DNA from: an uncultured bacterium
Lineage (GTDB): Bacteria > Oederibacteriota > Oederibacteriia > Oederibacteriales > Oederibacteriaceae
Direction: 5' to 3'
Assembly: GCA_965112635.1 (NCBI GenBank)
Contig: OZ218778.1
Location: 1,056,001 to 1,120,000, forward strand
DNA length: 64,000 nucleotides
The stretch's first letter is position 1, and each line of letters opens with the position of its first letter. This document shows, one piece after another, positions 1 to 35,875 of this stretch. The notes under the pieces are model-generated. The model saw only the letters and a list, made by a program, of their open reading frames with translations, was not told the origin of the DNA and searched no databases. Both the position numbers and the translations under genes were made by a program.

Positions 1-1
1 G

Positions 2-97
2 GAGTACGTGAAACTAGACCTGTGCCTGAACGAGGAAAATGTTTTTGAGGAACAGCAGATGGGCTTCCTCAGGCGGATGGTCAAGGATTTTAACTAG
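2..97 (+). CDS. 3' end of an unidentified CDS entering the window (EYVKLDLCLNEENVFEEQQMGFLRRMVKDFN*)
   Basis: Open frame from the window edge to TAG at 95-97; too short to identify. Confidence 0.4.
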   Translation, partial: EYVKLDLCLNEENVFEEQQMGFLRRMVKDFN

Positions 98-185
98 CCT
101 GCCCGATGGGTTGTGAGAGTCCTGGGCAGACTAGTTGCCCCCAAAATCCAGTGTGATTTTGGGGTTTATCATTTAGGAGGGTGAT

Positions 186-581
186 ATGCCGAAAAGTTCT
201 TACGAGGGTCTGCAGAAAAAAGTCAGAAACCTCAAAACCCCAGCCATCGCGACCTGGGCCAACCAGTATCCGGACCGGGAATACACCATCAATATGACTA
301 TCCCCGAGTTTACCTGCGTGTGCCCCAAGACCGGCCAGCCAGATTTCGCCACCCTGCACCTTTCCTATGTGCCGGACCGGCGTTGCGTGGAACTAAAATC
401 CTTTAAGCTGTATATCAATTTCTTCCGTTCCGTGGGAATATTCCACGAGCACGCGGTGAACAGAATTTTGGACGATTTTGTGAAGGCCTGTGAACCCAGA
501 AAAGCCAGTTTGACCGGTGATTTTAACACCAGGGGTGGTATCCATACCGCTGTTTCAGCCCAATATCTGGGGCCCCAGTGA
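186..581 (+). CDS. queF: NADPH-dependent 7-cyano-7-deazaguanine (preQ0) reductase, short type I
   Basis: PEFTCVCPKTGQPDFA, VELKSFKLY, FHE and RGGI motifs; RBS AGGAGG upstream. Confidence 0.95.
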   Translation: MPKSSYEGLQKKVRNLKTPAIATWANQYPDREYTINMTIPEFTCVCPKTGQPDFATLHLSYVPDRRCVELKSFKLYINFFRSVGIFHEHAVNRILDDFVKACEPRKASLTGDFNTRGGIHTAVSAQYLGPQ

Positions 582-624
582 TCTCTCCAGCCGGTTGCTT
601 TCTATATATACAGGCGGTCACCTA

Positions 625-1281
625 TCATTGAGGCCAGCCAATAGTCTGGCTAAGGATTATTTTTTGGGTATCTTTTAATCCCATTTTCTTGGCCAGTTCC
701 TTGCTGTCCATCATGCCCCGGACCACAGTGCCCAATCCGCTGGAAGCGCAAAACAGGTAAACATTTTGGCTGATAAATCCCGTATCCGTGGCAGAGTAAA
801 AACTGCTTGTTTCCGGCGATAATTTACTCATTTTGGACAGGTCAGCCACAAAGATGAGGTTGAGGGGCGCGTCTTTAACGAACGGCTGTTTGCCGGTCAA
901 AGCCCGAATGTCCTCGGCCAGGATAGGCAACAGCTTGTTGTCCTGGGCGTCATAAAGGTAAAGGCCGCCAGCCATGGCCGCGTAAATGTCTATCTCCTGC
1001 ATGTTCATGGCCGAAGGCGCGGTGCGGCCGCCTTTATCGGTCCGGTTGATGCCAAAAGCGGCCCAAAGCAGGTTGGACAGGGTCTGCAAGGGAATTTTTT
1101 TATCCGAAAAAGAGCGAATGGATTTGCGCTCCTTGAGGACGCGCATCAAGGGTTTGCCGCCGTCCATCTGCGGCTCCAGCAGGTTGATGGGTTTGAGCTC
1201 CTGGGCCCGCAAAGGCCAGGCGCTGGCCAGGAACAGGATAGAAAATAACACTCCGCCGATTTTATTTCTCGTGACAGACAT
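625..1281 (-). CDS. SagB/ThcOx-type nitroreductase family protein with N-terminal signal peptide
   Basis: RKSIRSFS, RTAPSA and DTGFISQNVYL motifs; AAGGAGG RBS places the start at MSVTRNK (1281). Confidence 0.85.
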   Translation of the reverse strand: MSVTRNKIGGVLFSILFLASAWPLRAQELKPINLLEPQMDGGKPLMRVLKERKSIRSFSDKKIPLQTLSNLLWAAFGINRTDKGGRTAPSAMNMQEIDIYAAMAGGLYLYDAQDNKLLPILAEDIRALTGKQPFVKDAPLNLIFVADLSKMSKLSPETSSFYSATDTGFISQNVYLFCASSGLGTVVRGMMDSKELAKKMGLKDTQKIILSQTIGWPQ

Positions 1282-1404
1282 CGTAACCTCCTTAGATGAA
1301 TGGGATTGGCTTAATTGTGCCATAAAATTGCATGATTTTCTGCCTAATCTTTGCGTCCTCAAAATTACCCTCTGGACAAAAATTTAAGGTAAAATTCTTA
1401 GGTA

Positions 1405-1621
1405 GTGGGTCTCCTGCGGGCACAGCCCGTGGCTCCCACAAAACATTCAGTCCGCTCGCCTAGACGGCGAAGCCGGTCTGGCCTCCGGCGGACTGACCAA
1501 AGGAGTATCTTCCTTTGGAATCCTCTCGGAGAGGAATAGTTTATAAAACTAGCGTTTTTTCATCCACGGGCAGAGCTCGCCTAGTCGGCGAAGCGACTGG
1601 CCCGTGGTCTTCAAAACGCTA
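1405..1621. repeat. Cluster of palindromes (IS200/IS605-end-like or REP-like) with two nested 25-27 bp insertions
   Basis: Hairpins at 1414-1432, 1447-1496 and 1564-1607; TTCATCC at 1559; related inserts at 1456-1482 and 1577-1601. Confidence 0.65.
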
Positions 1622-1648
1622 TTCCGATAAAGAACCCGGGGAGATGCA

Positions 1649-2503
1649 ATGAAAGTAAAAGTTTCGGTCTTGTTTCTATCCGTTACCTTTGTGCTGTCTC
1701 TATGGCTGGTGGTTCCCAAGGGTTTTGGGGATAACCTGGCTAGGTATTATCTAAAAAACGGAAATGACAAAGCCAAACTAGGGGATCCTAAAGGGGCGTT
1801 AGAAGAGCTCAATAAAGCGGTCGACGCGGACCCGTCCCTTTTTGCCGCATATTATTCGCGGAGCGAGGCGGAATTTTCTTTAAAGGATTACGCGGGAGCG
1901 ATCCGCGACCTGGATAGATTCATCGAGTTCCAGCCCCAGTTCGCCAAGGCCTATTTTTTACGGGGATGCATCAAGCAGATCAAAAAAGACCTCAAGGGAG
2001 CCATGACGGACTTTAACCAGGCCCTGGGTTTGGATCATGAGAATGGGGATGCCTATTTTAGCCGGGGTTCTTTGGAAGAGAGTTTGGGGAATTACGAGGA
2101 CGCCATACGCGATTATGACAGGACAGTGACCCTGAACCCTAAAAATTGGCTAGCATTCTTCAAGAGGGGCAGCATTTATTGGGCCGAAAGGAACTACAAA
2201 GCGACTGTCAAAGATTATAACCAGGTCATCAAATTGAAGCCCGATTTTTCAGATGCCTATAATGGCCGGGCCAGCGCGGAATATCAGTTGCAGCATTACG
2301 AGGATGCCATAAAGGACTGCGACAAGGCCTTAAAACTTGACCTCAAACTTGCCCAGGCCATGAATACCAGGGGTTGCGCGAAATATATGATGGGGGACCA
2401 GCAAGGCGCCCTTAAAGATTTGGATACCGCCTATAGGATGGGATACAAAAAAGCCGCAGAGACCATAAACAAGATACAAAAATCCGGCGGCCCCTTGCGG
2501 TAA
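1649..2503 (+). CDS. Exported tetratricopeptide repeat protein
   Basis: Signal-like N-terminus followed by about seven 34-aa AYxxRG...AIxDY repeats. Confidence 0.9.
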   Translation: MKVKVSVLFLSVTFVLSLWLVVPKGFGDNLARYYLKNGNDKAKLGDPKGALEELNKAVDADPSLFAAYYSRSEAEFSLKDYAGAIRDLDRFIEFQPQFAKAYFLRGCIKQIKKDLKGAMTDFNQALGLDHENGDAYFSRGSLEESLGNYEDAIRDYDRTVTLNPKNWLAFFKRGSIYWAERNYKATVKDYNQVIKLKPDFSDAYNGRASAEYQLQHYEDAIKDCDKALKLDLKLAQAMNTRGCAKYMMGDQQGALKDLDTAYRMGYKKAAETINKIQKSGGPLR

Positions 2504-2602
2504 GTTTTTTGATTTAACTTGGGAAGCGGACCATGAAAAAGGCTTTGCCTGTTTTGTCCCCAGTCCTTTTCCTGATGCTCGGTTCTTTTAATCCTTATCC
2601 AA

Positions 2603-2611
2603 TGTTATAAT
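2603..2611 (+). promoter_or_regulatory. Extended -10 promoter element upstream of mfd
   Basis: TGTTATAAT (TGn-TATAAT). Confidence 0.45.
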
Positions 2612-2716
2612 ACCCCTACAATTTATTGATCCTTTACAGGGCTGTGCCGGGAGGCAGAGCCCTTTTGGCGTTTCCGAACAGCCGGAAGATAATTAAATTT
2701 ACCCAGGAAAAGGAAG

Positions 2717-5700
2717 ATGTTTTTAGACGAAGTTCTGCCCAAAATTGAAAAACTGGCCAGTTTCCAGAAGCTCAACAACTGCCTGGCCAAAGCCAACCCC
2801 AGAATCGTGGTGGCTGGACAGGGGTTGTGGGGCACGAGCCGGGCTTTTTTCCTCGGCCTGCTGCGCAAAACACGGCAAAAGCCCTTTTTAGTCATCACCC
2901 GGCAGGAGGAACAGGCGTGGGAAATGGCTGAAGACCTCGAGGCCTTGATCGAAGAAGAGGGGGTCGTAAGCTGGTTCCCTTCATGGCAGATCCTGGCTTA
3001 TGACCCCTTGCCGGTGACCCCGGAAATATCGGAAAAACGGGTGATGGCCATGTATGAGGCTCTGAGCCAGAGTTTGTCGGGCAGAGGGAAAAATTTGCCC
3101 ATCCTGGTGGCCTCTTTAGAGGCTTTGCTCGTGAGGACCCTGCCTCCCGAGGAATTTTTAGACAGCCTGCTGGTCTTTAAAAAAGGCGAGGAGATCCCGT
3201 TCGGCGATTTGCCAGCCAGGCTGAGCGAGACTGGGTACGAGCGGGTGTCCCAGGTGGAAAAAAGGAGGGAGTTCGCCCTAAGGGGCGGCATCCTGGATAT
3301 TTACGGGCCCTTGGCAGAGATTAAGTTCCTTTCCCAATCCCCTGAGGCCGCGATGCAGGCCAACCACAACGAAAGCCTGTGCCTGCGGGTGGAGTTCGAA
3401 GGGGATGAAGTCGTGTCCTTGAGACTCTTTGATGTTTTGAGCCAGCAGTCTTACGCCAGGCTGGAATCCTGCGTGGTTTTGCCCGGTTCAGAATTGCGGC
3501 TCAAGGGCGGAATTGGAGCGGGGCGTCAGGAAGGGTCTGCTGGAGCGGAAGCCGGGGTCCGTTTCCCCGGAGTGGAAAATTATTTACCGAGATATTACGA
3601 CAAAACCTGCTCCCTGCTGGATTACCTGAGCCCTGAAACCATCCTTTGGCTGGAAGAACCCGGGGAAATGGAGGTCGAGGAACAAAAACATAATGAACGG
3701 GCGCAGAGATTGTATGAGAGCGCCAAAGGACGGGGGGAAGCCTGTTTGGCCCCGCACGAACGGTATTTTAACCTCGGCCATTTGATGGAACAGGCCGGCA
3801 GGCATACCCTGGTCCTGGCCTCCCTGCTCCAGCAGGCCCATGAACTGGCCCAACCGGAGGCAATGGTCCAATTCAGCGTCAGATCCAACGAGCCCTTTCA
3901 GGGCAAGTTCCCCTTGCTGATGGAAGAGCTGGCCTCCTGGAAACAAAGAGGCACCGAAGTGCATTTCCTGTGCCACAACGAGGGCGAAAAACAGCGGTTG
4001 CAGGAGCTTTTAAAAGAAAACGACCAGCTGAGCCCGCATTTTTATTTCCGCGAAAACCTGCTGAGGGCCGGGTTTTTTATGCCAGAAATATCTCTGGGGC
4101 TGGTGTCCAACCAGGAAATATTCGGCAGGATGTACCAGAAGGTCAAGCGCAAGTCCAGCCCCTACTCGGCCAAAGGCCGGGGACTTTCCAGCCTGGCCGA
4201 GATCGGCAAGGGAGACTACCTGGTCCACAAGGAACACGGCATCGCCATTTACCGGGGCCTGACCAGGTTAAAAGTGGAAGGGAACGAAAGCGATTACATC
4301 ACCCTGCAGTACGCCGACAACGACAAGCTCTACGTGCCCGTGGACCAGCTGGACAAGATACGCCGCTACACGGGAAGCAGCGCGCCGCCCAAGATCTACA
4401 GACTGGGAGGGGCGTCCTGGGACCAGGTCAAGGAAAAGGTCAAAGGCTCGATCCAGGAGATGGCCCGGGAATTGCTGGAGCTTTACGCCGAACGCAGCAG
4501 CGCCCAGGGGCACGCTTTTGCGGGGGACACGCCCTGGCAGAGCGAGTTCGAGTCCTCGTTCGTTTACCAGGAGACCGCGGACCAGGCCACGGCCACAAGC
4601 GAGATCAAGCGGACTTTAGAACAGCCCCAGCCCATGGACTACCTGCTCTGCGGGGATGTGGGCTACGGCAAGACCGAGGTGGCCATGCGGGCCGCTTTTA
4701 AGGTGATGATGGACAAAAAACAGGTGGCGGTCCTGGTGCCCACCACTTTGCTGGCCGAGCAGCACTTTTTCACTTTCAGCCAGCGCTTCGCGGACTATCC
4801 GGTCCGGGTGGCCATGCTGTCCAGGTTCAAAACAAGGGCCGAGCAGGCCAAGATCGTGCAGGAACTGGGGGAGGGCAAAGTGGACCTGGTCATCGGCACC
4901 CACAGGCTCCTGCAAAAGGATATTGTGTTCCGCGACCTGGGACTGCTCATCATCGACGAGGAGCACCGGTTCGGGGTGGGCCACAAGGAAAAGCTGAAAC
5001 AGCTGAAGACCACCGTGGACGTTCTGTCCCTGACGGCCACGCCCATCCCCCGCACCCTGCACATGGCTTTCAGCGGTCTGCGGCCCATGAGCCTCATCGC
5101 CACCCCGCCCTTGAACCGCCTGCCCATCCAGACCTTTGTCCAGCCCTACCGGGAAGAGACCGTGCGCGAAGCCATCTGGCGGGAGATCAACCGGGGCGGG
5201 CAGGTCTTTTACGTGCACAACCGGGTGCGGGACATCCAGAGGGCCAAGGAACAGCTGCAGGCCATTGTGCCTGACGCCCGGGTGTGCGTGGCCCACGGCC
5301 AGATGGACGAAAAAGAGCTGGAGCAGGTGATGAAGGCGTTCCTGGGGCGGGCCTACGACGTGCTGATGTCCACTTCCATCATCGAGTCCGGCCTGGACAT
5401 CCCCACGGTCAACACGCTCGTCATCGAGGACGCGGAAAATTTCGGGCTGGCCCAGCTCTACCAGCTGCGCGGCCGGGTGGGCCGGAGCGAGGAAAAAGCC
5501 TACGCCTACCTATTGTATTCACCGGACCAGGTCATCGACGAGAACGCCAAAAAAAGGTTGAGGTCCATCCAGGAGTTCACGGAGCTGGGGTCGGGGTTCA
5601 GGCTGGCCATGCGGGATTTGGAGATACGGGGAGCCGGGAACCTTTTAGGCAAGGCCCAGCACGGCAATATGCAGGCCGTGGGGTTTGACCTGTATTGCGA

Positions 5701-6208
5701 GCTCCTACAGGAGGCCGTGGCCAACCTGAAACAGGGGGCCGTTCCGGTCATTGAAGAACGGCCGGAGATCGTGGTCCCGGTGGATGCCTATTTCCCGGAC
5801 GATTATATTCCGGATTCCAGCACCAAGATACAACTCTACGAAAGGCTGCTGCAGCTCAAGACCTTGACTGAGGTGGACGATTTCAGCCTGGAGATGCTGG
5901 ACCGTTTCGGGGCCGTTCCGGCGGAAGCACGGGCCGTGCTCTTAGCCGCCAAGGTGAGGATCCTGTGCCCTTCCTGCGGCATCAAAAAGGTCAGGATGGA
6001 CGAGGAGATGTTTTCCCTGGTCTTTTCCGACCTCAAAACCGTTTCTTTAAAGACCTTGGAAAAAGCTTTTGGCCAGGGAATGATGAAACCTTCCTGCTGC
6101 AGCGTCCAACCGGACGGATCGCTTTTGTTCAAAAAAAACATGGGGTTGGAGGAGTTGATTACCTTGTTGCAAAGACTGGCGGACTATGTTAGTTTCAAAA
6201 AACCTTAA
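2717..6208 (+). CDS. mfd: Transcription-repair coupling factor
   Basis: UvrB-homology N-terminus, CarD-like RID (HKEHGIAIY), GDVGYGKT, DEEH, TATPIPRT, QLRGRVGR and TRG motif. Confidence 0.98.
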   Translation: MFLDEVLPKIEKLASFQKLNNCLAKANPRIVVAGQGLWGTSRAFFLGLLRKTRQKPFLVITRQEEQAWEMAEDLEALIEEEGVVSWFPSWQILAYDPLPVTPEISEKRVMAMYEALSQSLSGRGKNLPILVASLEALLVRTLPPEEFLDSLLVFKKGEEIPFGDLPARLSETGYERVSQVEKRREFALRGGILDIYGPLAEIKFLSQSPEAAMQANHNESLCLRVEFEGDEVVSLRLFDVLSQQSYARLESCVVLPGSELRLKGGIGAGRQEGSAGAEAGVRFPGVENYLPRYYDKTCSLLDYLSPETILWLEEPGEMEVEEQKHNERAQRLYESAKGRGEACLAPHERYFNLGHLMEQAGRHTLVLASLLQQAHELAQPEAMVQFSVRSNEPFQGKFPLLMEELASWKQRGTEVHFLCHNEGEKQRLQELLKENDQLSPHFYFRENLLRAGFFMPEISLGLVSNQEIFGRMYQKVKRKSSPYSAKGRGLSSLAEIGKGDYLVHKEHGIAIYRGLTRLKVEGNESDYITLQYADNDKLYVPVDQLDKIRRYTGSSAPPKIYRLGGASWDQVKEKVKGSIQEMARELLELYAERSSAQGHAFAGDTPWQSEFESSFVYQETADQATATSEIKRTLEQPQPMDYLLCGDVGYGKTEVAMRAAFKVMMDKKQVAVLVPTTLLAEQHFFTFSQRFADYPVRVAMLSRFKTRAEQAKIVQELGEGKVDLVIGTHRLLQKDIVFRDLGLLIIDEEHRFGVGHKEKLKQLKTTVDVLSLTATPIPRTLHMAFSGLRPMSLIATPPLNRLPIQTFVQPYREETVREAIWREINRGGQVFYVHNRVRDIQRAKEQLQAIVPDARVCVAHGQMDEKELEQVMKAFLGRAYDVLMSTSIIESGLDIPTVNTLVIEDAENFGLAQLYQLRGRVGRSEEKAYAYLLYSPDQVIDENAKKRLRSIQEFTELGSGFRLAMRDLEIRGAGNLLGKAQHGNMQAVGFDLYCELLQEAVANLKQGAVPVIEERPEIVVPVDAYFPDDYIPDSSTKIQLYERLLQLKTLTEVDDFSLEMLDRFGAVPAEARAVLLAAKVRILCPSCGIKKVRMDEEMFSLVFSDLKTVSLKTLEKAFGQGMMKPSCCSVQPDGSLLFKKNMGLEELITLLQRLADYVSFKKP

Positions 6209-6226
6209 GCGGTCCGGAGACCATTT

Positions 6227-7177
6227 ATGCCCGTGAAAAAAATTTTACGAACGTCCTGCCTCTTGTTCCTGACCATAGTCCTCTTGGCCGGATGCCAGAA
6301 AAACCGCGGCTTGGATTCACAGGGTCCGGACAAGGAAGACATTTTGGCCATGGTCAACGGTGAACCCATCACCATGGAAGACCTTGATAACGAGAGGGAT
6401 TTGAGCCCTCTGCCCAAGCACTCCAGCGCGGCCAGGGCGGTCCAGGACATCAACCAAGCCCTTTTTGAGCAGCTCGTGGAAAGGAAGCTCCTCCTGCAGG
6501 AGGCCAGGCGCCGGCATATCCAGGTCAGCCCAGAAGAGGTCCAGGACGAGATCAGGGGCAGCGCGGGCAATCTTTCCCTGAACCAACTGCACCGGTTCCT
6601 GAGCGACCAGGGCGAGGATGTGCAGGAATGGCAAAAGCGGCTTTCGGAAGAATTGCTCATCAACAAGCTGCTGCAGGAGCTGACCAAGAAGATCACGGCG
6701 GTCTCTGCAGCGGAGGAAAAGGACTACTACGCCAAGCATGTTTCCACGGAGTTCAGGGAGCCGGCCAAGGTTAAAGTCAGGCAGATCCTGGTCCGGTCGG
6801 AGCGGAAGGCCGAAGCCGTCCTCAAGGAGCTCAAGAAAAAAGCGGATTTTGGCGATCTGGCAAGGGAAAAATCCCTTGCGCCTGATGCCAAAAAAGGCGG
6901 GGACTGGGGGTACTGCTCCTATGACGACCTTCCCGCGCCGCTGGCCCAGGTCATCTTTGACCTGGATCCCGGAGAGGTCAGCAAGCCGGTCAAAAGCGCC
7001 TACGGCTACCATATTTTCCTGGCCGAAGCGAGACGGAATGCCAGGGTCTTAACTTTCGAGGAAGCACAGGACACCATCAAGCAAAAGCTTTTGAATGAGA
7101 AAAAGAACGCCCTGATAGAAAAATTCCTTACCGAGCTTCCAAAAAATGCTAAAATCGAAATGTTAAAACCGCTTTAA
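6227..7177 (+). CDS. SurA/PrsA-like parvulin peptidyl-prolyl isomerase, lipoprotein
   Basis: Lipobox LAGC; VNGEPIT; parvulin motifs FGDLAREKS, GGDWG and SAYGYHI. Confidence 0.9.
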   Translation: MPVKKILRTSCLLFLTIVLLAGCQKNRGLDSQGPDKEDILAMVNGEPITMEDLDNERDLSPLPKHSSAARAVQDINQALFEQLVERKLLLQEARRRHIQVSPEEVQDEIRGSAGNLSLNQLHRFLSDQGEDVQEWQKRLSEELLINKLLQELTKKITAVSAAEEKDYYAKHVSTEFREPAKVKVRQILVRSERKAEAVLKELKKKADFGDLAREKSLAPDAKKGGDWGYCSYDDLPAPLAQVIFDLDPGEVSKPVKSAYGYHIFLAEARRNARVLTFEEAQDTIKQKLLNEKKNALIEKFLTELPKNAKIEMLKPL

Positions 7178-24067: not shown

Positions 24068-25608
24068 GCTTGGACAAAGTTTTTTACATCACCACCCCCA
24101 TCTATTACGTCAACGACAACCTGCACCTGGGGCACGCTTACACCACCCTGGGCTGTGACGCCATCAGCCGGTGGGAGCGTCTCTTAGGCCGGGAGGTCTT
24201 TTTCCTGACCGGCACGGACGAACACGGCCAAAAGATCGAGGATGTGGCCAAGGCCAAAGGCACTACCGCCAAGGCCTGGGCGGATGGTATCGTGGAGAAC
24301 AGTAAGGCCCTTTGGAAAGAGCTGGGGGTCACCTATGACCGCTTTATCCGTACCACCGATATAGACCACGAAAAAGTCGTGCAGGAGTTCTTTAAAAAAC
24401 TGTATGAAAAAGGCGATATTTACAAAGGCGAATACGAAGGCTGGTATTGCGTTTCCGACGAGAGCTTTTTCACCGAGACCCAGCTCAACGAGGGCAAATG
24501 CCCGGACTGCGGCAGGGAAGTGAGCAAGCTCAAAGAGGAGAGCTACTTTTTCAAACTGTCCAAATACGCGCCGGCTCTCCTCAAGTATTATGATGAAAAT
24601 CCGGATTTTATCCAACCTGTTTCCCGACGAAGCGAGATGGTCAACATCGTCAAGGACGACCTTAAAGACCTCTCGGTTAGCAGGGTGGGGGTCAAGTGGG
24701 GCATACCGGTCCCTTTTGACGACAAGCACACCATTTATGTCTGGTTCGACGCCCTGCTCAACTACCTGACCGCCGCGGGGTACTATTTTGACCAGAAAAA
24801 ATTCGAGCGGGTCTGGCCTGCGGATATCCACATGGTGGGCAAGGAGATCCTCAAGTTCCACAGCGTCATCTGGCCGGCCATGCTCATGGCCCTCGAGGTC
24901 AGGCTGCCCAAAAAAGTTTTCGCCCACGGCTGGTGGACCGTGGAAGGCGACAAAATGTCCAAGTCCAAAGGCAATATCATCGACCCCAGGGTTTTTGCCC
25001 AGCAATTCGGGGTGGAACCTCTGAGGTATTTTGTATTGCGCGAAGTTCCCTTTGGGCTGGACGGGGATTTTTCCCAAAGATCCTTTACCCTGCGCTACAA
25101 CGGCGACCTGGCCAATGACCTGGGCAATCTGCTGAACCGCACCCTGACCATGGTGGAAAAGAGTTATGAGGGTGTGGTGCCGACGGAGTTCCAGTCCGAT
25201 ATGAGCAATCCTATGAAAGAGATCAATGCTGACCTGTTCTCAAGGGTCCAAAAAGCCATGGACCGGGTGGCCTTAGACCAGGCTCTGGAAGAAATTTTCA
25301 AGTTGGTCGGCCGGGCCAATAAATACATCGAGGAATCAGCGCCTTGGACCTTGCTCAAGCAGTCAAAGAACGAGGATCATAAAGCCGTGATGTATAATCT
25401 CTGTGAAACTCTGCGCTTGACCGCGGTTTACCTCAAACCCTTTATCCCGGCTACGGCCCTGTCCATCTGGAAGCAGCTGGGGCTTACCCAGGATTTTGAC
25501 CAGGTCAGGCTGCCTGAGTCCGGCCAATGGGGTCTGTTCCCCAAGGGGATAAAAGTGCAAAAAGGCCAGCCGCTTTTTCCCAGGATGGAATCGCCCCGTA
25601 AAACCTGA
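24064..25608 (+). CDS. metG: Methionine--tRNA ligase (short form without C-terminal tRNA-binding domain)
   Basis: FYITTPIYY, HLGH, GTDEHG, YVWFDAL and KMSKS; TTG start at 24064 (or 24070). Confidence 0.97.
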   Translation: MSLDKVFYITTPIYYVNDNLHLGHAYTTLGCDAISRWERLLGREVFFLTGTDEHGQKIEDVAKAKGTTAKAWADGIVENSKALWKELGVTYDRFIRTTDIDHEKVVQEFFKKLYEKGDIYKGEYEGWYCVSDESFFTETQLNEGKCPDCGREVSKLKEESYFFKLSKYAPALLKYYDENPDFIQPVSRRSEMVNIVKDDLKDLSVSRVGVKWGIPVPFDDKHTIYVWFDALLNYLTAAGYYFDQKKFERVWPADIHMVGKEILKFHSVIWPAMLMALEVRLPKKVFAHGWWTVEGDKMSKSKGNIIDPRVFAQQFGVEPLRYFVLREVPFGLDGDFSQRSFTLRYNGDLANDLGNLLNRTLTMVEKSYEGVVPTEFQSDMSNPMKEINADLFSRVQKAMDRVALDQALEEIFKLVGRANKYIEESAPWTLLKQSKNEDHKAVMYNLCETLRLTAVYLKPFIPATALSIWKQLGLTQDFDQVRLPESGQWGLFPKGIKVQKGQPLFPRMESPRKT

Positions 25609-29411: not shown

Positions 29412-30983
29412 GCGACCAAGCCAGCTTTTCATTGCGCGGCCGTAACCCGGATGTGCTGACATGCATCGCGAACCTCTCTAATGACGAGGTGTTCACGCCC
29501 CCCTGGCTCGCAAACAGGATGCTGGACATGCTTGCCGAGGCATGGGCCGCTACAAACGGCGGCGCGGACATCTGGGCGGACAAGACAGTGAGGTTCCTGG
29601 ATCCCTTCACGAAATCTGGTGTATTTCTAAGGGAGATCACCCGTCGCCTCACCAAGGGGCTGGAAAAGGAGATTCCAGACCTGGAGAAGAGGGTTAATCA
29701 CATCCTGGCGAATCAGGTGTTCGGCATCAGTATCACGCATCTCACAGGCCTACTGGCGCGCCGGAGCGTCTATTGCTCAAAGCACGTCACCGGAAAGCAC
29801 TCGATCGCCAAGGGATTCTCTAGCGATGACGGCAACATCTGGTTTAAACGCATGAAACACGAATGGGATGGCACAAAATGTAGGTTCTGTGAAGCGACGA
29901 AAGCCAGCTTGGATCGTGAGGAAGAACTTGAGAATTACGCCTATCCTTTCATTCACACCAATAATATTAAAACTCGGATATCCGAGTGGTTTGGAGGAAC
30001 TATGCAATTCGACGTTGTTATAGGCAATCCACCCTATCAGATGAAGGGGGGGGCAGGTGGAACAAGCGATTCGTCCATCTACCATCTCTTCGTTGAGCAG
30101 GCGAAGAATCTTGAACCAAAATTCCTGTCGATGGTAGTTCCATCCCGTTGGCTCGCAGGCGGCCGCGGACTCGACGAGTTCCGCAAGGAAATGCTCAGTT
30201 CAGGCAATCTCCACAAATTGGTCGATTTCCCAGTCTCAAAAGAAGTCTTTCCAAACGTTGAGGTAATGGGTGGCATTTGCTACTTCCTCTGGTCGGCCGC
30301 CCATAGCGGCCCATGCGACGTTACATTAGTCCGCGGTGACGAGGAGTCGACTTCTTCGCGGCAACTCGACGAGTTTGATGTGTTTGTGCGAGATTCGAAG
30401 GCCGTGGGCATCTTGCGCAAGGTATTGAATGCTGGCGAGCAACCCATTACCAACATTTTGACCGCTGACACCCCCTTCGGTATCGCAACTAACTTTGACG
30501 ACTTCCATGACAAGAAAAAGTCGGGGGATGTAGCACTTTATTATGTCCGAAGTGGCAAGCGCGACATTGGATTTGTCCCACGAAGCACGATCACCAAGAA
30601 TGCGACGCTCATCGACAAGTGGAAAGTGCTTGTTCCAAAAGCGCACGGCGGACAGAAAATTCCTGATGCAGTGCTCGGCAAGCCTTGGCTGAGTCCTCCG
30701 CCATCTGTCGCTACTCAGACATTCCTCGCTTTCTGTGTGGTGAATGAGGACGAAGCGCAAAGTCTTGAGTCCTATTACCGCACCAAGTTTTTCAGGCATT
30801 TGGTCTCGTTACGTAAACTCACACAAGACGCACTGCGACCGATGTATTCATGGGTTCCCGTTCAAACGTGGAATCGACAGTGGACCGATAAAGCACTTTA
30901 CAAGAAATATGGGCTTACAAAAGAAGAGATTGACTACATCGAGGCCGTTGTTCGCCCTATGAACCACGGTACGGAGGATGGTG

Positions 30984-30991
<8 letters not shown>
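29408..30991 (+). CDS. Eco57I-type N6-adenine DNA methyltransferase with C-terminal target-recognition region
   Basis: DEVFTP, FLDPFTKSGVF, catalytic motif IV GNPPY and VPSRW. Confidence 0.88.
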
Positions 30992-33524
<2,533 letters not shown>

Positions 33525-33593
33525 ACGGTGCCTGGTCTTGAATCTTTGTATAAATAAATGGAATCCGGGGTCACCTATGAAAAAAGAAGTCAA

Positions 33594-33752
33594 GCCAAAA
33601 GCACACCCCAAATCCGTTCAGAACCTACAAAGGGTCTCTAGTTCCATTTAAGGACTAGGAAGCCAGTCACCTATAGATGCTCAAAGGCATATGATGAAGT
33701 AGGAACCGGTGGCACAATCACATCTTTCGGATTTAGCTGAAATAATCCTCAG
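33594..33752 (-). ncRNA. Candidate bridge/seek RNA of the IS1111-type element
   Basis: Closing stem AAATCCG/CGGATTT (33610-33616/33728-33734); internal copies of both element junctions. Confidence 0.6.
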
Positions 33753-34799
33753 CTATTCCATGACCCCGGGGTGCTCGCCGGCCTTTTCCTGCCCTAAAGC
33801 AACAAGCCTAAAAGTTTCCTTGCGTTTGAGCATATACCAAATGACTTCTAGGAGTTTTCGAGCCACAGCAACTCTTCCTGTATTGGCGCCATGTTTACTT
33901 TTAACCCGTTCAAACAAATCCTTGAACCGCCGGTCTTTCTTGATTATATGATGACTGTTTTCCACTAGGATCCATCTGAGCCATTTAGAACCTTGCTTTG
34001 TTAACCCCCCGTGTCTTTCTTTATCTGCGGATTGATAGGTTGATGGTGCCAGTCCAGCGTACGAGCATAACTTTTTTGGATTTGGAAACCTGTCTATCTC
34101 TCCAATCTCGCTCAAAATCAGCAGGGCAGAATAGATTCCAATTCCAGGAATGCTCTGCAACATTTGGCCTTCTTCGCTTAGCTGAATCTGTTTATTTAGT
34201 TTTTTTTTGTTCTCCAACAGTTCCTTGTTTACCGCGTCAATCAACCTCAAAAATCCATTTACTTCTTCACGATAGCTCTCTCTTAATTCAAGACCGGCTA
34301 GCCACTTACGGCCTTTCTTGCCGAAAACATCGCTCATTTCATCTTCGTGGCCATCCTTCATTAAAACCGCGTGAATCTTGCACTTTAACATTGTCCTTTG
34401 TGAGACCAGGGAGGCGCGATATCGGAGCACCTCCCTCAGGTCCCTAATTTCTCTTTTGGGAATGTAAGCGCTAGGCACCAGGTCGGCTCTGGATAAGTGG
34501 GCCAGGGTCGTACTGTCTATGGTATCCGTTTTTATTCGTGCTGAGGCGATGGCTTTCACTTTCAAGGGATGCGCTAAGGTAACTAGGGGCAGATGCTTCT
34601 CTATCGTCTCGTAAAAGAACATCCAGTTTCCGGTTGCCTCTACAACAACCTTGGTATCCCTAGGATATTTCCCGAAAAAACTCTCCATCTCCTCCCGGTT
34701 GTTATTTACTCTCCTTTTCTCTAATACCTTTCCTTTATCATCCATCGCTACGACTTGACTGAACTTCTTGTGAAGATCTACCCCCAGATGTATACTCAT
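33753..34799 (-). CDS. IS110-family DEDD recombinase/transposase
   Basis: GVDLHK, VEATG, KTDTID, SIPGIG, YAGLAP.TYQS and AVARKL. Confidence 0.95.
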   Translation of the reverse strand: MSIHLGVDLHKKFSQVVAMDDKGKVLEKRRVNNNREEMESFFGKYPRDTKVVVEATGNWMFFYETIEKHLPLVTLAHPLKVKAIASARIKTDTIDSTTLAHLSRADLVPSAYIPKREIRDLREVLRYRASLVSQRTMLKCKIHAVLMKDGHEDEMSDVFGKKGRKWLAGLELRESYREEVNGFLRLIDAVNKELLENKKKLNKQIQLSEEGQMLQSIPGIGIYSALLILSEIGEIDRFPNPKKLCSYAGLAPSTYQSADKERHGGLTKQGSKWLRWILVENSHHIIKKDRRFKDLFERVKSKHGANTGRVAVARKLLEVIWYMLKRKETFRLVALGQEKAGEHPGVME

Positions 34800-35053
34800 T
34801 TTTGCCGCACCTCCTTAAAAGATTTGTTCCAGCCTTACGGCTGAGAACCCAGGTTCCCCAAGAACTTTGGTCCTTGAGACCCAGTATATCTTTTAGGATG
34901 TGCGGTTTTCCTTTTTCATCACATCACATCTTGGCAATTGACACGTGATAATTTTCCGCCTCCCTCAGGCTTCCTTTTTCGCCGTTTCTTTCCAAAGAAA
35001 ACTGACTTTGCTACAATCATCCCATGAAATGTTTCTAGGCTTTAAAATACCTT

Positions 35054-35875
35054 ATGAAATTTATGAGAAAGGTCCAGCCTTTGACACCAGAGCTTATTGA
35101 TACCCACGCTCATCTGCACGGCCAGACCTATGCCAATGAGATCGAACAGGTGGTCGAGCGGGCTAAACAGACCGGCGTCCTCACTATGGTCACCATCGGC
35201 ACCAGCGTCCCGGACAGCAGGGAAGCGGTGCAGTTGGCGGACAAGTTCCCCGGGGTATATGCCAGCCTGGGAGTGCATCCAGACCATTATAGTCTGTGGG
35301 ATAAATCCAGTTTTAATTCCCTCAAGGAAATTGCACTTCAAAATCCCAAAGTCGTGGCTATTGGCGAGACCGGACTAGATTTTTTCCACCACAAGGATGA
35401 AGAGGCCCGGAAACAGCAGGCAGAGGTTTTTCGCCAACATATCCAGCTGGCCCGGAAACTGCACCTGCCTCTCATCATCCATTCCCGAGAGGCCCATCCC
35501 CAGACACTGCAGGTCCTTCGGGAGGAAAAGGCCGGGGAGCTTGGTGGAATAATTCATTGTTTTACCTCGGACTGGGAGGCTGCCAAGGATTATCTGGACC
35601 TGGGGTTTATGGTCGCTCTGGGCGGTATAATCACCTTTGGAAAAAAAGCAGCCCAGCTGGAAGATACGGCCAAAAAACTGCCCGAGGACCGCATTATTTT
35701 GGAAACGGACTGCCCATACCTGGCACCCGCGCCTTTCCGGGGTAAGCGCAATGAGCCGGCCTATGTGCGCCAGATCGCGGAAAAGCTGGCCGGACTCAGG
35801 ATGACCAGCCTGGAAAAGATCGCGGAATCCACGACAGCCAACGCAAAAAAGGTTTTCTCCTTTAATCGCGGGTAG
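35054..35875 (+). CDS. tatD: TatD family deoxyribonuclease
   Basis: IDTHAHL, GVHP, IGETGLD, IHSREA, HCF and ETDCPYL. Confidence 0.95.
   Translation: MKFMRKVQPLTPELIDTHAHLHGQTYANEIEQVVERAKQTGVLTMVTIGTSVPDSREAVQLADKFPGVYASLGVHPDHYSLWDKSSFNSLKEIALQNPKVVAIGETGLDFFHHKDEEARKQQAEVFRQHIQLARKLHLPLIIHSREAHPQTLQVLREEKAGELGGIIHCFTSDWEAAKDYLDLGFMVALGGIITFGKKAAQLEDTAKKLPEDRIILETDCPYLAPAPFRGKRNEPAYVRQIAEKLAGLRMTSLEKIAESTTANAKKVFSFNRG

What the first reader, a model, noticed from the sequence alone, without database searches (positions are those of the whole stretch)
33571..34932. IS1111-type IS110 element whose downstream non-coding end carries copies of both junctions: candidate bridge/seek RNA with readable guides
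Seen: the element has 12-bp subterminal IRs and the same core (GTGA on the minus strand) at both junctions. The reconstructed empty target is ...CCAAGAT-GTGA-CCCCGG... and the circle junction is ...TTCATAG-GTGA-TGTGATG.... In the ~160 nt after the transposase stop, the minus strand contains AAGATGTGAT (33726-33717), identical to the upstream junction at 34932-34923 (target-left + core). It also contains ATAGGTGAC (33674-33666), identical to the downstream junction at 33578-33570 (donor-left + core). A third segment (33689-33698) is a 9/10 inverted match to the element's upstream end. All of these lie inside a closing stem AAATCCG/CGGATTT. Established: IS110 recombinases use an element-encoded RNA that base-pairs with target and donor DNA, and in the IS1111 group it lies downstream of the gene. 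Inference: this is a programmable RNA-guided recombinase with a GTGA core. I could not identify a convincing right-target guide.
Basis: partly seen in the sequence, partly recalled or inferred. Interest (0 to 1): 0.85.

Follow-up and report, generated by a model that had tools for sequence, protein, structure and literature searches.

The report
IS1111-type element with readable bridge RNA
This is an intact insertion sequence of the known IS110/IS1111 kind. Its own small RNA carries short copies of the target site and of the element's ends, so it is a well-behaved new member of a family described in 2024 and not a new kind of system.

Summary
On the minus strand AAGATGTGAT lies at 34932-34923 and 33726-33717. 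ATAGGTGAC lies at 33578-33570 and 33674-33666. A 9/10 inverted match to the left end lies at 33698-33689.

The element is a 1353-bp IS1111-group member of the IS110 family (33574-34926). It has a 348-aa DEDD/Tnp recombinase, 12-bp subterminal inverted repeats and the family's 7-bp/3-bp terminal extensions. The genome holds four full copies and one remnant.

- The core is the dinucleotide TG, not GTGA.
- The missing right-target guide is CCGGGGUCA (33769-33761), inside the last codons of the recombinase gene and 5' of the left-target guide, as published for IS1111 seekRNAs.
- The target loop is closed by a covarying helix, 33781-33771 with 33715-33706, not by AAAUCCG/CGGAUUU.

All four guides change together with their DNA partners across homologues. 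The right-donor guide does so only weakly. The target is a REP-like inverted repeat that flanks REP-associated tyrosine transposase genes.

No RNA data exist. Verdict: real, correctly interpreted in the main, an ordinary new member of a known kind.

The parts
33574..34926 (-). The insertion sequence, 1353 bp in the IS1111 convention. The left extension is TGATGTG, which includes the core TG. The right extension is AGG.
   Evidence: Junctions of four copies. The 7-bp and 3-bp terminal extensions beyond the subterminal repeats are as stated for IS1111 members in PMC11187229 (Introduction passage).
33753..34799 (-). Recombinase gene, 348 aa, with a DEDD RuvC-like domain and a Tnp domain.
   Evidence: ORF. 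Pfam PF01548 and PF02371. NCBIfam NF033542, 244 bits. D8, E54, D92, D95 and S257 align to the catalytic residues of IS621.
34925..34926 (-). Core dinucleotide TG at the left junction.
   Evidence: Family comparison of left and right junctions. In L081 the core is CG throughout.
33572..33573 (-). Core dinucleotide TG at the right junction (the target's copy).
34908..34919 (-). Left subterminal inverted repeat, ATGAAAAAGGAA.
   Evidence: Found in homologues by the reverse complement of the right repeat.
33577..33588 (-). Right subterminal inverted repeat, TTCTTTTTTCAT.
33599..33798 (-). Bridge/seek RNA region: the match to covariance model R1. True RNA ends are unknown.
   Evidence: cmsearch, 99.8 bits, E 1e-29, the only hit in the window. 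Five hits in the genome, all in copies of this element.
33771..33781 (-). 5' strand of helix P1/P2 (CCGGCG.GCAC), inside the reading frame.
   Evidence: Pairs with 33706-33715. On A3, 84.9% of cells pair against 27-47% for slid controls, and 12 of 15 pairs change on both sides. On A5, P1 and P2 are each 81% paired.
33761..33769 (-). Right-target guide CCGGGGUCA, complementary to the top strand of core plus right flank (TGACCCCGG, 33573-33565).
   Evidence: The same alignment columns hold the reverse complement of the right flank in homologues with other flanks: L036, L026, L024, L027, L080, L071, L015.
33729..33759 (-). Hairpin between the two target guides (GGA..AGCUGA / UCAGCU..UCC).
   Evidence: The inner 8-bp stem appears in the single-sequence fold. 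A hairpin stands at this place in homologues by eye. Its base pairs are only 49% kept in fixed columns, so this part is inconclusive.
33719..33726 (-). Left-target guide AAGAUG plus core UG, identical to the top strand of the left flank plus core.
   Evidence: Cognate matches next to the core in homologues.
33717..33718 (-). AU after the left-target guide. It equals the first two bases of the element's left end (candidate handshake positions).
   Evidence: TGATTG is invariant in A2 and nearly invariant in A3. Left ends begin AT wherever they were mapped.
33706..33715 (-). 3' strand of helix P1/P2 (GUGC.CACCGG).
33689..33698 (-). Right-donor guide UUCAUCAUAU, complementary to the left end ATGTGATGAA (34924-34915) with one G:U pair.
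   Evidence: Homologues have 4-7 complementary bases here in a slightly variable register.
33677..33690 (-). Hairpin between the two donor guides (AUGC..GCAU).
   Evidence: The only helix found by RNAalifold. 94-96% of cells paired.
33668..33674 (-). Left-donor guide AUAGG plus core UG, identical to the right end plus core.
   Evidence: This is among the longest direct repeats downstream of the gene in most homologous loci and changes with the right end.
33666..33667 (-). AC after the left-donor guide. It equals the first two bases of the right target flank (candidate handshake positions).
   Evidence: Both bases equal the right flank in 26 of 43 distinct elements, including 14 rows where they are not AC (read by eye).
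33588..33593 (-). TTGACT, a -35-like box near the right end. With 17 bases of spacer across a circle junction it would face TGTGAT (34923-34918).
   Evidence: CTTGACA is conserved at this place in most homologues. The promoter itself is inferred.
34927..34943 (-). Left half of the interrupted REP-like target (TGTCAATTGCCAAGATG).
   Evidence: Compared with the inverted repeats that flank the RAYT-like gene in L105.
33565..33571 (-). Right half of the target (ACCCCGG).

Best explanation
This is an active or recently active IS1111-group insertion sequence of the IS110 family. Its DEDD/Tnp recombinase is guided by an RNA of roughly 130-200 nt. That RNA starts inside the last ~30 nt of the recombinase gene and runs into the downstream non-coding end.

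The RNA has two guide loops, each built as right guide, hairpin, left guide.

**Target loop**, closed by helix 33781-33771 / 33715-33706:
[quoted passage not shown] **Donor loop:**
[quoted passage not shown] Recombination between the circular donor junction and the target crosses over at TG. It places the element, without duplication, into a REP-like repeat (..GTCAAGATG TG ACCCC..).

**What is shown:** the sequence anatomy, the copies, family-wide conservation and covariation, and homology to IS621.

**What is inferred:** that the RNA is made and bound, the circle intermediate and its junction promoter, and the order of strand exchange.
For: 1. **Protein.** PF01548 and PF02371. NF033542 'IS110 family RNA-guided transposase', 244 bits against a cut-off of 140. 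IS621 transposase 8wt6 at E 2e-13, with D8, E54, D92, D95 and S257 aligned.

2. **Copies.** Four full copies plus one 3' remnant in the 2.88-Mb genome. The body of L002 is identical to this copy. All sit at ..CAAGA-NN-TG / ACCC.. sites.

3. **IS1111 hallmarks.** 12-bp subterminal repeats with 7-bp and 3-bp extensions. The long non-coding end lies downstream. The recombinase is 348 aa.

4. **RNA conservation.** Model R1 finds one hit in the window. It also hits 45 of 80 homologous loci, 20 of them not used to build it, on the gene's strand and at the gene's 3' end, except L051.

5. **Structure.** Helix P1/P2: 84.9% of cells paired against 27-47% for slid controls, 12 of 15 pairs changed on both sides, 0 of 500 shuffles as high. 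On A5: 79.4% against 26-45%.

6. **Left-donor guide changes with the right end**: ATAGATGA in L026, ATAAGTGA in L027, AGGGATGA in L031, AGAAATGG in L058, ATAGAAGG in L070, ATAGACGT in L081.

7. **Right-target guide changes with the right flank**: GUUUUUCA / TGAAAAAC in L036, GUUCGCGAUC / GATCGCGAAC in L026, AUGGUCUC / GAGACCAT in L024, UUCCGGGGAC / GTCCCCGGAA in L080, AACGGGGACA / TGTCCCCGTT in L071. By my reading, 21 of 25 distinct elements have at least 7 contiguous complementary bases, counting wobble pairs.

8. **Left-target guide matches the left flank** next to the core by at least 4 contiguous bases at the best site in 19 of 20 distinct elements with a mapped left junction. L012 has 3 (read by eye).

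9. **Guide order.** The top-strand complement lies 5' of the bottom-strand complement, as published for IS1111 seekRNAs (PMC11187229 section 9).

10. **Target enrichment.** AAGANNTGACCCC occurs 22 times unoccupied in the genome. The reversed control pattern occurs 0 times.
Against: - There is no RNA evidence. No run listed as RNA holds the stretch. Only contigs could be laid, and they show no circle junction and no empty site.
- The single-sequence fold is no more stable than shuffles (z = -0.28). RNAalifold recovered only one hairpin.
- The right-donor guide does not pair with the core. GC stands where CA would be needed. Its register varies among homologues, and L009 and L080 show no clear match.
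- The Ser-Gly motif reads Ser-Ala here.
- Two of the four copies sit at imperfect sites: L002 has one mismatch and L004 two mismatches next to the core.
- The -10 element that a circle junction would create (TGTGAT) is weak.
- No minus-strand promoter or terminator was found inside the element.
- The guide counts were read by eye after the script machine failed. Alignment A5 is fitted to the model's own structure.
Confidence: 0.9

Rival explanations
1. The internal copies of the junction sequences are DNA sites read by the recombinase protein, as subterminal binding repeats are in many transposons. No guide RNA is involved.
For: The repeats are also present as DNA. No RNA data exist for this organism. 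The single-sequence fold is not unusually stable.
Against: - A helix that would only matter in RNA is kept through changes on both sides and G-U pairs.
- Some guide-to-DNA matches hold only if G:U or G:T pairs are allowed: L013, L008, L014.
- The layout equals that of experimentally shown seekRNAs.
- The protein family is the RNA-guided one.
Confidence: 0.03
2. One reading: a 4-base GTGA core, and all guides enclosed by the stem AAAUCCG (33733-33727) / CGGAUUU (33615-33609), with no right-target guide in the RNA.
For: The 7-bp complementarity and GTGA at both junctions are real in this sequence. The diverged remnant L005 could keep 5 of the 7 pairs (by eye).
Against: - The stem is 40.4% paired in homologues against 18-40% for slid controls. 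That part of alignment A3 is poorly aligned.
- UCC pairs with an upstream GGA in the family hairpin.
- The core is limited to 2 bases by L080 and L081, by the L005 variant and by the L004 junction.
- A right-target guide sits at 33769-33761, outside that stem.
Confidence: 0.04
3. The element and its RNA are intact in sequence but no longer move in this host. The copies would then reflect old activity plus gene conversion between copies.
For: - The copies are mosaics. The first ~430 bp and the RNA region are identical in all four, while the middle of L003 and L004 differs by about 10%.
- The Ser-Ala variant.
- The weak junction -10.
- No circle or empty-site contigs.
Against: - L001 and L002 are identical in body but lie at different sites.
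- A peat metagenome contig shows a further right flank not present in this genome (loose end at 33566).
- The reading frame is open and the catalytic residues are kept.
Confidence: 0.12

Closest known systems
ISEc11, ISPa11, ISKpn4 and ISPst6: IS1111-family elements with an experimentally shown seekRNA (Siddiquee et al. 2024, PMC11187229)
   Same: The non-coding end lies downstream. There are subterminal inverted repeats with 7-bp and 3-bp extensions. The recombinase is 330-350 aa. The top-strand complement lies 5' of the bottom-strand complement. Insertion is site-specific without duplication. ISPa11 also targets a REP.
   Different: The protein is distant: only 23-25% identity to IS4321 and IS5075, the named IS1111 members I could compare. 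The best public relatives are 36-54% identical, with 71-75% in unnamed metagenome proteins. The core is TG. Ser-Ala replaces Ser/Thr-Gly. The 5' strand of the closing helix and the right-target guide lie inside the coding sequence. I could not check whether that also holds for the published elements, because their figures and supplements are not held.
IS621 bridge RNA system, IS110 group (Durrant et al. 2024, PMC11208160; Hiraizumi et al. 2024, PMC11208158; PDB 8wt6)
   Same: A homologous recombinase with the same catalytic residues. One RNA with a target loop and a donor loop. Left guides read like the top strand, and right guides are its reverse complement. There is a 2-base core, and the target is a REP.
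   Different: - Here the RNA lies downstream of the gene, not upstream.
- The guide order within each loop is reversed: right guide first.
- The right-donor guide does not cover the core.
- The two extra bases that read the non-cognate partner follow the left guides here. In IS621 they adjoin the right guides.
[quoted passage not shown]
   Same: The element targets the inverted repeats that bracket another mobile gene. Here these are the 31-nt repeats around a RAYT-like gene.
   Different: The target family differs: REP/RAYT instead of Tn3-family ends. Protein identity is 23-25%.
ISPpu9 and ISPpu10 of Pseudomonas putida: IS110-family occupants of REP sequences (PMC12288879 abstract; title of the 2006 paper)
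   Same: Multi-copy residence in REP elements of one genome.
   Different: Different host phylum and a different REP. I did not compare the sequences.

Membership tests
IS110 family (DEDD recombinases) | N-terminal DEDD RuvC-like domain plus a C-terminal Tnp domain with the catalytic Ser. | tested here: met
   PF01548 (E 6e-24) and PF02371 (E 2e-24). NF033542, 244 bits against a cut-off of 140. D8, E54, D92, D95 and S257 align to IS621.
IS1111 group | Subterminal inverted repeats of 11-13 bp. | tested here: met
   34919-34908 and 33588-33577: 12 bp, 11 of 12 complementary. Criterion from PMC11187229.
IS1111 group | Asymmetric terminal extensions beyond the repeats: 7 (or 6) bp on the left and 3 bp on the right. 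| tested here: met
   TGATGTG (34926-34920) and AGG (33576-33574), once the TG core is assigned to the left end.
IS1111 group | The long non-coding region lies downstream of the recombinase gene. | tested here: met
   179 nt lie between the stop codon and the right end. 127 nt lie between the left end and the start codon.
IS1111 group | Recombinase of 330-350 aa related over its full length to IS1111-group recombinases, with the motif GL-P----S(T)G. | tested here: inconclusive
   348 aa. It aligns over residues 5-330 with IS4321 and IS5075, but at only 23-25% identity. The motif reads GLAPSTYQSA, that is SA and not SG or TG. The paper notes occasional TA.
IS1111 group | Site-specific insertion without target duplication. 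| tested here: met
   The four copies lie at related sites and share only the 2-base core. There are 22 free sites with the motif. No empty allele of an occupied site was found.
seekRNA / bridge RNA | RNA segments complementary to both strands of the target. In IS1111 types the top-strand complement lies 5' of the bottom-strand one. | tested here: met
   33769-33761 and 33726-33719, with covariation in homologues.
seekRNA / bridge RNA | A donor loop with guides for both ends of the element. | tested here: met
   Left-donor guide 33674-33668, with strong covariation. Right-donor guide 33698-33689, weaker and in a variable register.
seekRNA / bridge RNA (IS621 rule) | [quoted passage not shown] | tested here: not met
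   The core is covered by the right-target, left-target and left-donor guides. The right-donor guide is followed by GC where CA would be needed, and the same holds in homologues.
seekRNA / bridge RNA | The RNA is transcribed and bound by the recombinase, and is needed for transposition. | not testable with these tools
   No RNA run holds the stretch.
IS110 / IS1111 | A circular intermediate whose junction forms a promoter. | tested here: inconclusive
   -35 TTGACT at 33593-33588 is conserved in homologues. The -10 that a junction would supply is TGTGAT, 4 of 6. No junction contig was found.

The most novel reading that the evidence does not exclude
In this clade the 'handshake' logic of IS621 is present but mirrored.

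- The two bases after the left-target guide (AU) read the first two bases of the element's own left end.
- The two bases after the left-donor guide (AC) read the first two bases of the target's right flank. They change with that flank in homologues: AG, AA, AT, TC, GT, GG, GA.

It would mean that IS1111-type complexes are the IS621 machine turned round relative to its gene, exchanging first the strand that the left guides pair with.

In addition, about a third of the RNA, including one guide, is written inside the recombinase's last codons. Retargeting would therefore change the protein's tail.
Probability: 0.4. Interest if true: 0.5.

Novelty: new member of a known kind. Interest (0 to 1): 0.3.

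Why it matters
It adds a fully decoded natural example to the IS1111 branch of RNA-guided recombinases, which is less studied than the IS110 branch. All four guides, the core, the ends, the target repeat and a second natural guide variant are found in the same genome. It comes from a peat bacterium that is the only member of its family among the genomes searched.

The family alignment gives a usable covariance model. It also gives a testable rule for where each guide sits. This could help annotate such elements and choose orthologues for engineering. It does not change what is known about how these systems work.

Tried and rejected
- **Rfam.** An E-value scan of 33300-35200 gave only a chance microRNA match outside the element. 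No bridge-RNA family matched.
- **Single-sequence fold.** z = -0.28. RNAalifold on A3 gave only one hairpin.
- **First scan of genome contigs.** With the single protein it found no relative. The allowed second scan, with an alignment, gave 80 loci.
- **Empty allele.** None of the 20 nearest genomes, all only 'same phylum', matched the flank, so no empty allele of this site could be read.
- **Sequencing runs.** No RNA holder is listed. The best DNA holder has 0.25 of the sampled words, and all runs are peat metagenomes kept as contigs. Laying X1, X2, X3 and X9 gave no joints. It gave two loose ends at the element's borders, 34933 and 33566. It says nothing about expression.
- **Hairpin between the target guides and a stem closing the donor loop.** In fixed columns of A3 these were 46-57% paired. 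One slid control reached 54%. This is inconclusive. After realignment to the model the hairpin base was 49% paired.
Not supported.
- **Promoter and terminator scan.** No minus-strand site in the linear element.
- **Plasmid tblastn.** It gave no close named relative.
- **A statistical script for guide/flank covariation** could not be run. The counts in this report were therefore made by eye.
- **Not used:** Structure prediction, fold search, complex prediction, the protein atlas and the representative search. The family was clear without them.
- **Supplements of papers are closed, and I did not ask for them.** Durrant's Extended Data Fig. 10c and Supplementary Table 5, and Siddiquee's Supplementary Figs 6-8, may already show guide positions, overlap with the gene or handshake positions for IS1111 members. 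I therefore do not claim these points are unpublished. My only search on this was 'IS1111' + 'handshake' (4 papers). In the three I opened by passages, IS1111 and handshake are not discussed together.
Full report
**What is there.** On the minus strand of 33574-34926 lies a 1353-bp insertion sequence. It carries one gene (33753-34799, 348 aa).
- The protein matches the two Pfam domains of IS110-family recombinases, PF01548 and PF02371.
- It matches NCBI's model 'IS110 family RNA-guided transposase' at 244 bits against a cut-off of 140.
- It matches the solved IS621 and ISCro4 transposases. D8, E54, D92, D95 and S257 align to the catalytic residues of IS621.

**The observation.** AAGATGTGAT occurs 2 times against 0.06 expected. 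ATAGGTGAC occurs 4 times against 0.14 expected.

**Copies and ends.** The 2.88-Mb single-contig genome holds four full copies and one diverged 3' remnant.
- L002 is identical in body to the window's copy.
- L003 and L004 are about 92-93% identical over the aligned stretch. They are identical to the window's copy in the first ~430 bp and in the whole downstream non-coding end.
- In all copies similarity to the window stops a few bases outside the junctions. The flanks share a short motif..CAAGA-NN-TG on the left and ACCC(C) on the right.
- The element has 12-bp subterminal inverted repeats, 11 of 12 complementary. Once the shared TG is assigned to the left end, the terminal extensions are 7 bp and 3 bp. 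These are the values given for IS1111-family members in the Introduction of PMC11187229.

**Relatives.** A search of 5.8 billion proteins gave thousands of relatives. The nearest outside this genome are 75% and 71% identical, both unnamed metagenome proteins. The rest are at most about 56% identical. A scan of one genome per species, using an alignment of 34 of these proteins, gave 80 loci. They are 36-54% identical and come from metagenome-assembled genomes of many bacterial and archaeal phyla.

Printing the DNA after each stop codon showed a common plan, in this order:
1. a variable stretch ending in TGATTG;
2. a GC-rich stem;
3. a second variable stretch;
4. a hairpin (UGUGCC..GCACG);
5. 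a copy of the element's right end (commonly ATAGGTGACTGA);
6. after 60-200 nt, CTTGACA, the right inverted repeat and the true right end.

**Guides.** I use the published rule from PMC11208160 (passages). Left guides read like the top strand of left flank plus core. Right guides are the reverse complement of core plus right side.

*Left-donor guide.* The internal copy of the right end is among the longest direct repeats downstream of the gene in most loci. It changes with the right end: ATAGATGA, ATAAGTGA, AGGGATGA, AGAAATGG, ATAGAAGG, ATAGACGT, ATCGATAA, ATACACGG.

*Left-target guide.* I located left ends through the inverted repeat. The bases before TGATTG repeat the left flank next to the core. 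Examples are TGACTC in L025, ATGAAG in L081, CAGACC in L018, GATGC in L027 and TCTAA in L057. By my reading, 19 of 20 distinct elements have at least 4 contiguous matches at their best site, with wobble pairs allowed in 5 of them. L012 has 3.

*Core.* In L080 and L081 the two junctions share only 2 bases. In L081 these are CG instead of TG in both guides and at both junctions. Within this genome, the diverged remnant L005 has CTTGA in its left-target guide but GGTGA in its left-donor guide. L004's left junction reads TTGA. The core is therefore TG.

*Right-target guide.* The alignments show a block GGGGTCA just 5' of a hairpin and of the left-target guide. In the window it is CCGGGGUCA at 33769-33761, the exact reverse complement of TGACCCCGG at the right junction. 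Where homologues have another right flank, this block follows it:
- L036: GUUUUUCA / TGAAAAAC
- L026: GUUCGCGAUC / GATCGCGAAC
- L024: AUGGUCUC / GAGACCAT
- L027: ACUUGUUUC / GAAATAAGT, with one G:T pair
- L080: UUCCGGGGAC / GTCCCCGGAA
- L071: AACGGGGACA / TGTCCCCGTT
- L015: GGGGGUCA / TGACCCCC

L081 and L076 match by only 5-6 bases, and L037 and L025 are unclear.

This guide lies inside the last codons of the gene. It lies 5' of the left-target guide, which is the order Siddiquee et al. report for IS1111 seekRNAs (section 9).

Homologues have 4-7 complementary bases at about the same place, but the register shifts by one to three bases. L009 and L080 show no clear match. The core is not covered. 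This is the weakest of the four guides.

**Structure.**
- The segment CCGGCG.GCAC (33781-33771, inside the reading frame) pairs with GUGC.CACCGG (33715-33706) and closes the target loop.
- On alignment A3 (27 sequences) this helix plus the donor-loop hairpin are 84.9% paired, against 27-47% when the partner is slid by 1-3 columns. 12 of 15 pairs change on both sides, and 0 of 500 shuffles reach the observed values.
- A covariance model with five helices finds one hit in the window (33599-33798, 99.8 bits). It also hits all other copies in the genome and 45 of the 80 homologous loci, 20 of which were not used to build it.
- On the resulting alignment of 46 distinct sequences, P1 and P2 are each 81% paired and the donor hairpin is 96% paired. 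The hairpin between the target guides is only 49% paired at its base. That alignment is fitted to the model, so it leans towards the model's structure.
The 3' part of A3 is poorly aligned, so this is weak negative evidence. However, the UCC of that stem belongs to the family's hairpin.

**Target.** AAGANNTGACCCC occurs 22 times unoccupied in the genome, and the reversed control pattern occurs 0 times.
- Many of these sites flank a 278-aa gene in inverted orientation. In L105 the arms are 31 nt long and 94% complementary.
- The protein matches Pfam Y1_Tnp and NCBI's 'REP-associated tyrosine transposase' model at 80.5 bits against a cut-off of 80, so only just.
- Five full genes of this kind and two fragments are present.
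- The element therefore inserts into a REP-like repeat. REP targeting is published for other IS110-family members such as IS621, ISPa11 and ISPpu10 (titles and passages seen).
- Two sub-families of the repeat exist: ..GATG TG ACCCC (3 free sites) and ..GACT TG ACCCC (8 free sites). They correspond to the left-target guides of the window's type (AAGAUG) and of the L005 remnant (GAGACU). This is a natural retargeting within one genome. It cannot be checked directly, because L005 has lost its left end.

- The T that ends AAGATGTGAT equals the second base of the element's left end. The C that ends ATAGGTGAC equals the second base of the right flank.
- Across 43 distinct elements (by eye), both bases after the core in the left-donor guide equal the right flank in 26. 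One of the two does so in 11. Only the first base could be read, and it matched, in 2. Neither matched in 4.
- In 14 rows the pair is not the default AC (AG, AA, AT, TC, GT, GG, GA) and still matches the flank. Left ends begin AT wherever they were mapped.
- In IS621, two 'handshake' bases beside the right guides pair with the non-cognate DNA after strand exchange (PMC11208158 passages). Here the same logic appears beside the left guides.
- This fits the view that the IS1111 layout is the IS621 layout turned round. That is inference. The way right ends were located favours long matches slightly. Recognition of the integrated junction during excision would give the same pattern.

**What is not shown.**
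- No RNA run holds the region, and only metagenome contigs could be laid. They show two borders of similarity at the element's edges. One is the L003 site. The other is a right flank not present in this genome. There is no circle junction and no empty site.
- The linear element has no promoter-like or terminator-like site on its coding strand.
- The junction promoter is inferred from the -35 TTGACT and its conservation. The -10 it would gain is weak.

**Comparison and verdict.** Every tested hallmark of the IS1111 group is met, with two reservations. The Ser-Gly motif reads Ser-Ala, and identity to named members is low. The RNA meets the seekRNA/bridge-RNA definition by sequence and covariation. 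One IS621 rule is not met: the core is not paired in all four guides. Bridge RNAs were already predicted in 93% of IS1111 elements (PMC11208160 passage). This is therefore a new member of a known kind. I give 0.3, mainly for the clean family-wide decoding and the mirrored-handshake lead.

Guide tallies are hand counts from printed tool outputs.

Noticed in passing
G000:C1:1775599-1776523 (locus L105 1099-2023); also C1:1522713-1523540, 2734133-2734948, 1395-2210, 2873621-2874436: There are five full genes for 278-aa Y1 (IS200-like) transposases with a C-terminal helix-turn-helix. They just reach NCBI's REP-associated tyrosine transposase cut-off. They are bracketed by 24-31-nt inverted repeats, and these repeats are the insertion target of the IS1111-type element.
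   Followed up: partly
G000:C1:1-1372 (L004) and C1:2875643-2875996 (L005), the two ends of the single contig: A full copy ends exactly at the first base of the contig. Its left flank fits the guide of the diverged L005 type better than its own guide: two mismatches next to the core for its own. A 5'-truncated L005-type remnant lies 10 nt from the contig's other end. If the contig is circular, the two lie head to tail. This may be a nested event, a half-matched recombination or an assembly artefact at a repeat.
   Followed up: partly
L001-L004 (alignment): The copies are mosaics. The first ~430 bp and the whole RNA region are identical in all four, while the middle of the gene in L003 and L004 differs by about 10%. 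This suggests recombination or gene conversion between two element types.
   Followed up: no
window 24324-24336, minus strand: CATAGGTGACCCC, the 13-base signature of the element's right junction, occurs once more in the window without any adjacent element sequence. It may be chance, or the scar of a lost copy.
   Followed up: partly
L009, L013, L020, L014, L023 (left flanks): Relatives of the element in genomes labelled as different phyla (Nitrospirae, Gemmatimonadota, unclassified bacteria) sit in nearly the same target motif, GTCAAGA-YN-TG ACCCC. The REP-like target, or its RAYT partner, seems to travel as widely as the element does.
   Followed up: no
G000:C1:2864000-2876006 and 1-7000 (L104, L103): This region is rich in mobile genes. 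It holds Mutator-family and DDE_Tnp_1 transposases, RAYT-like genes and 9 of the 22 free target motifs within about 14 kb across the contig ends.
   Followed up: partly
L035 2120-2215 and L051 about 2255-2300: Two homologous loci carry tandem duplications of their right-end region, with units of 46 nt and 42 nt. The result is two or more candidate right ends.
   Followed up: no
window 30978-33524 and 35054-35875: The neighbours of the element are an 848-aa open reading frame that I did not search against any family, and a 273-aa open reading frame that I also did not search against families. The element sits in the 1.5-kb gap between them and interrupts neither.
   Followed up: no
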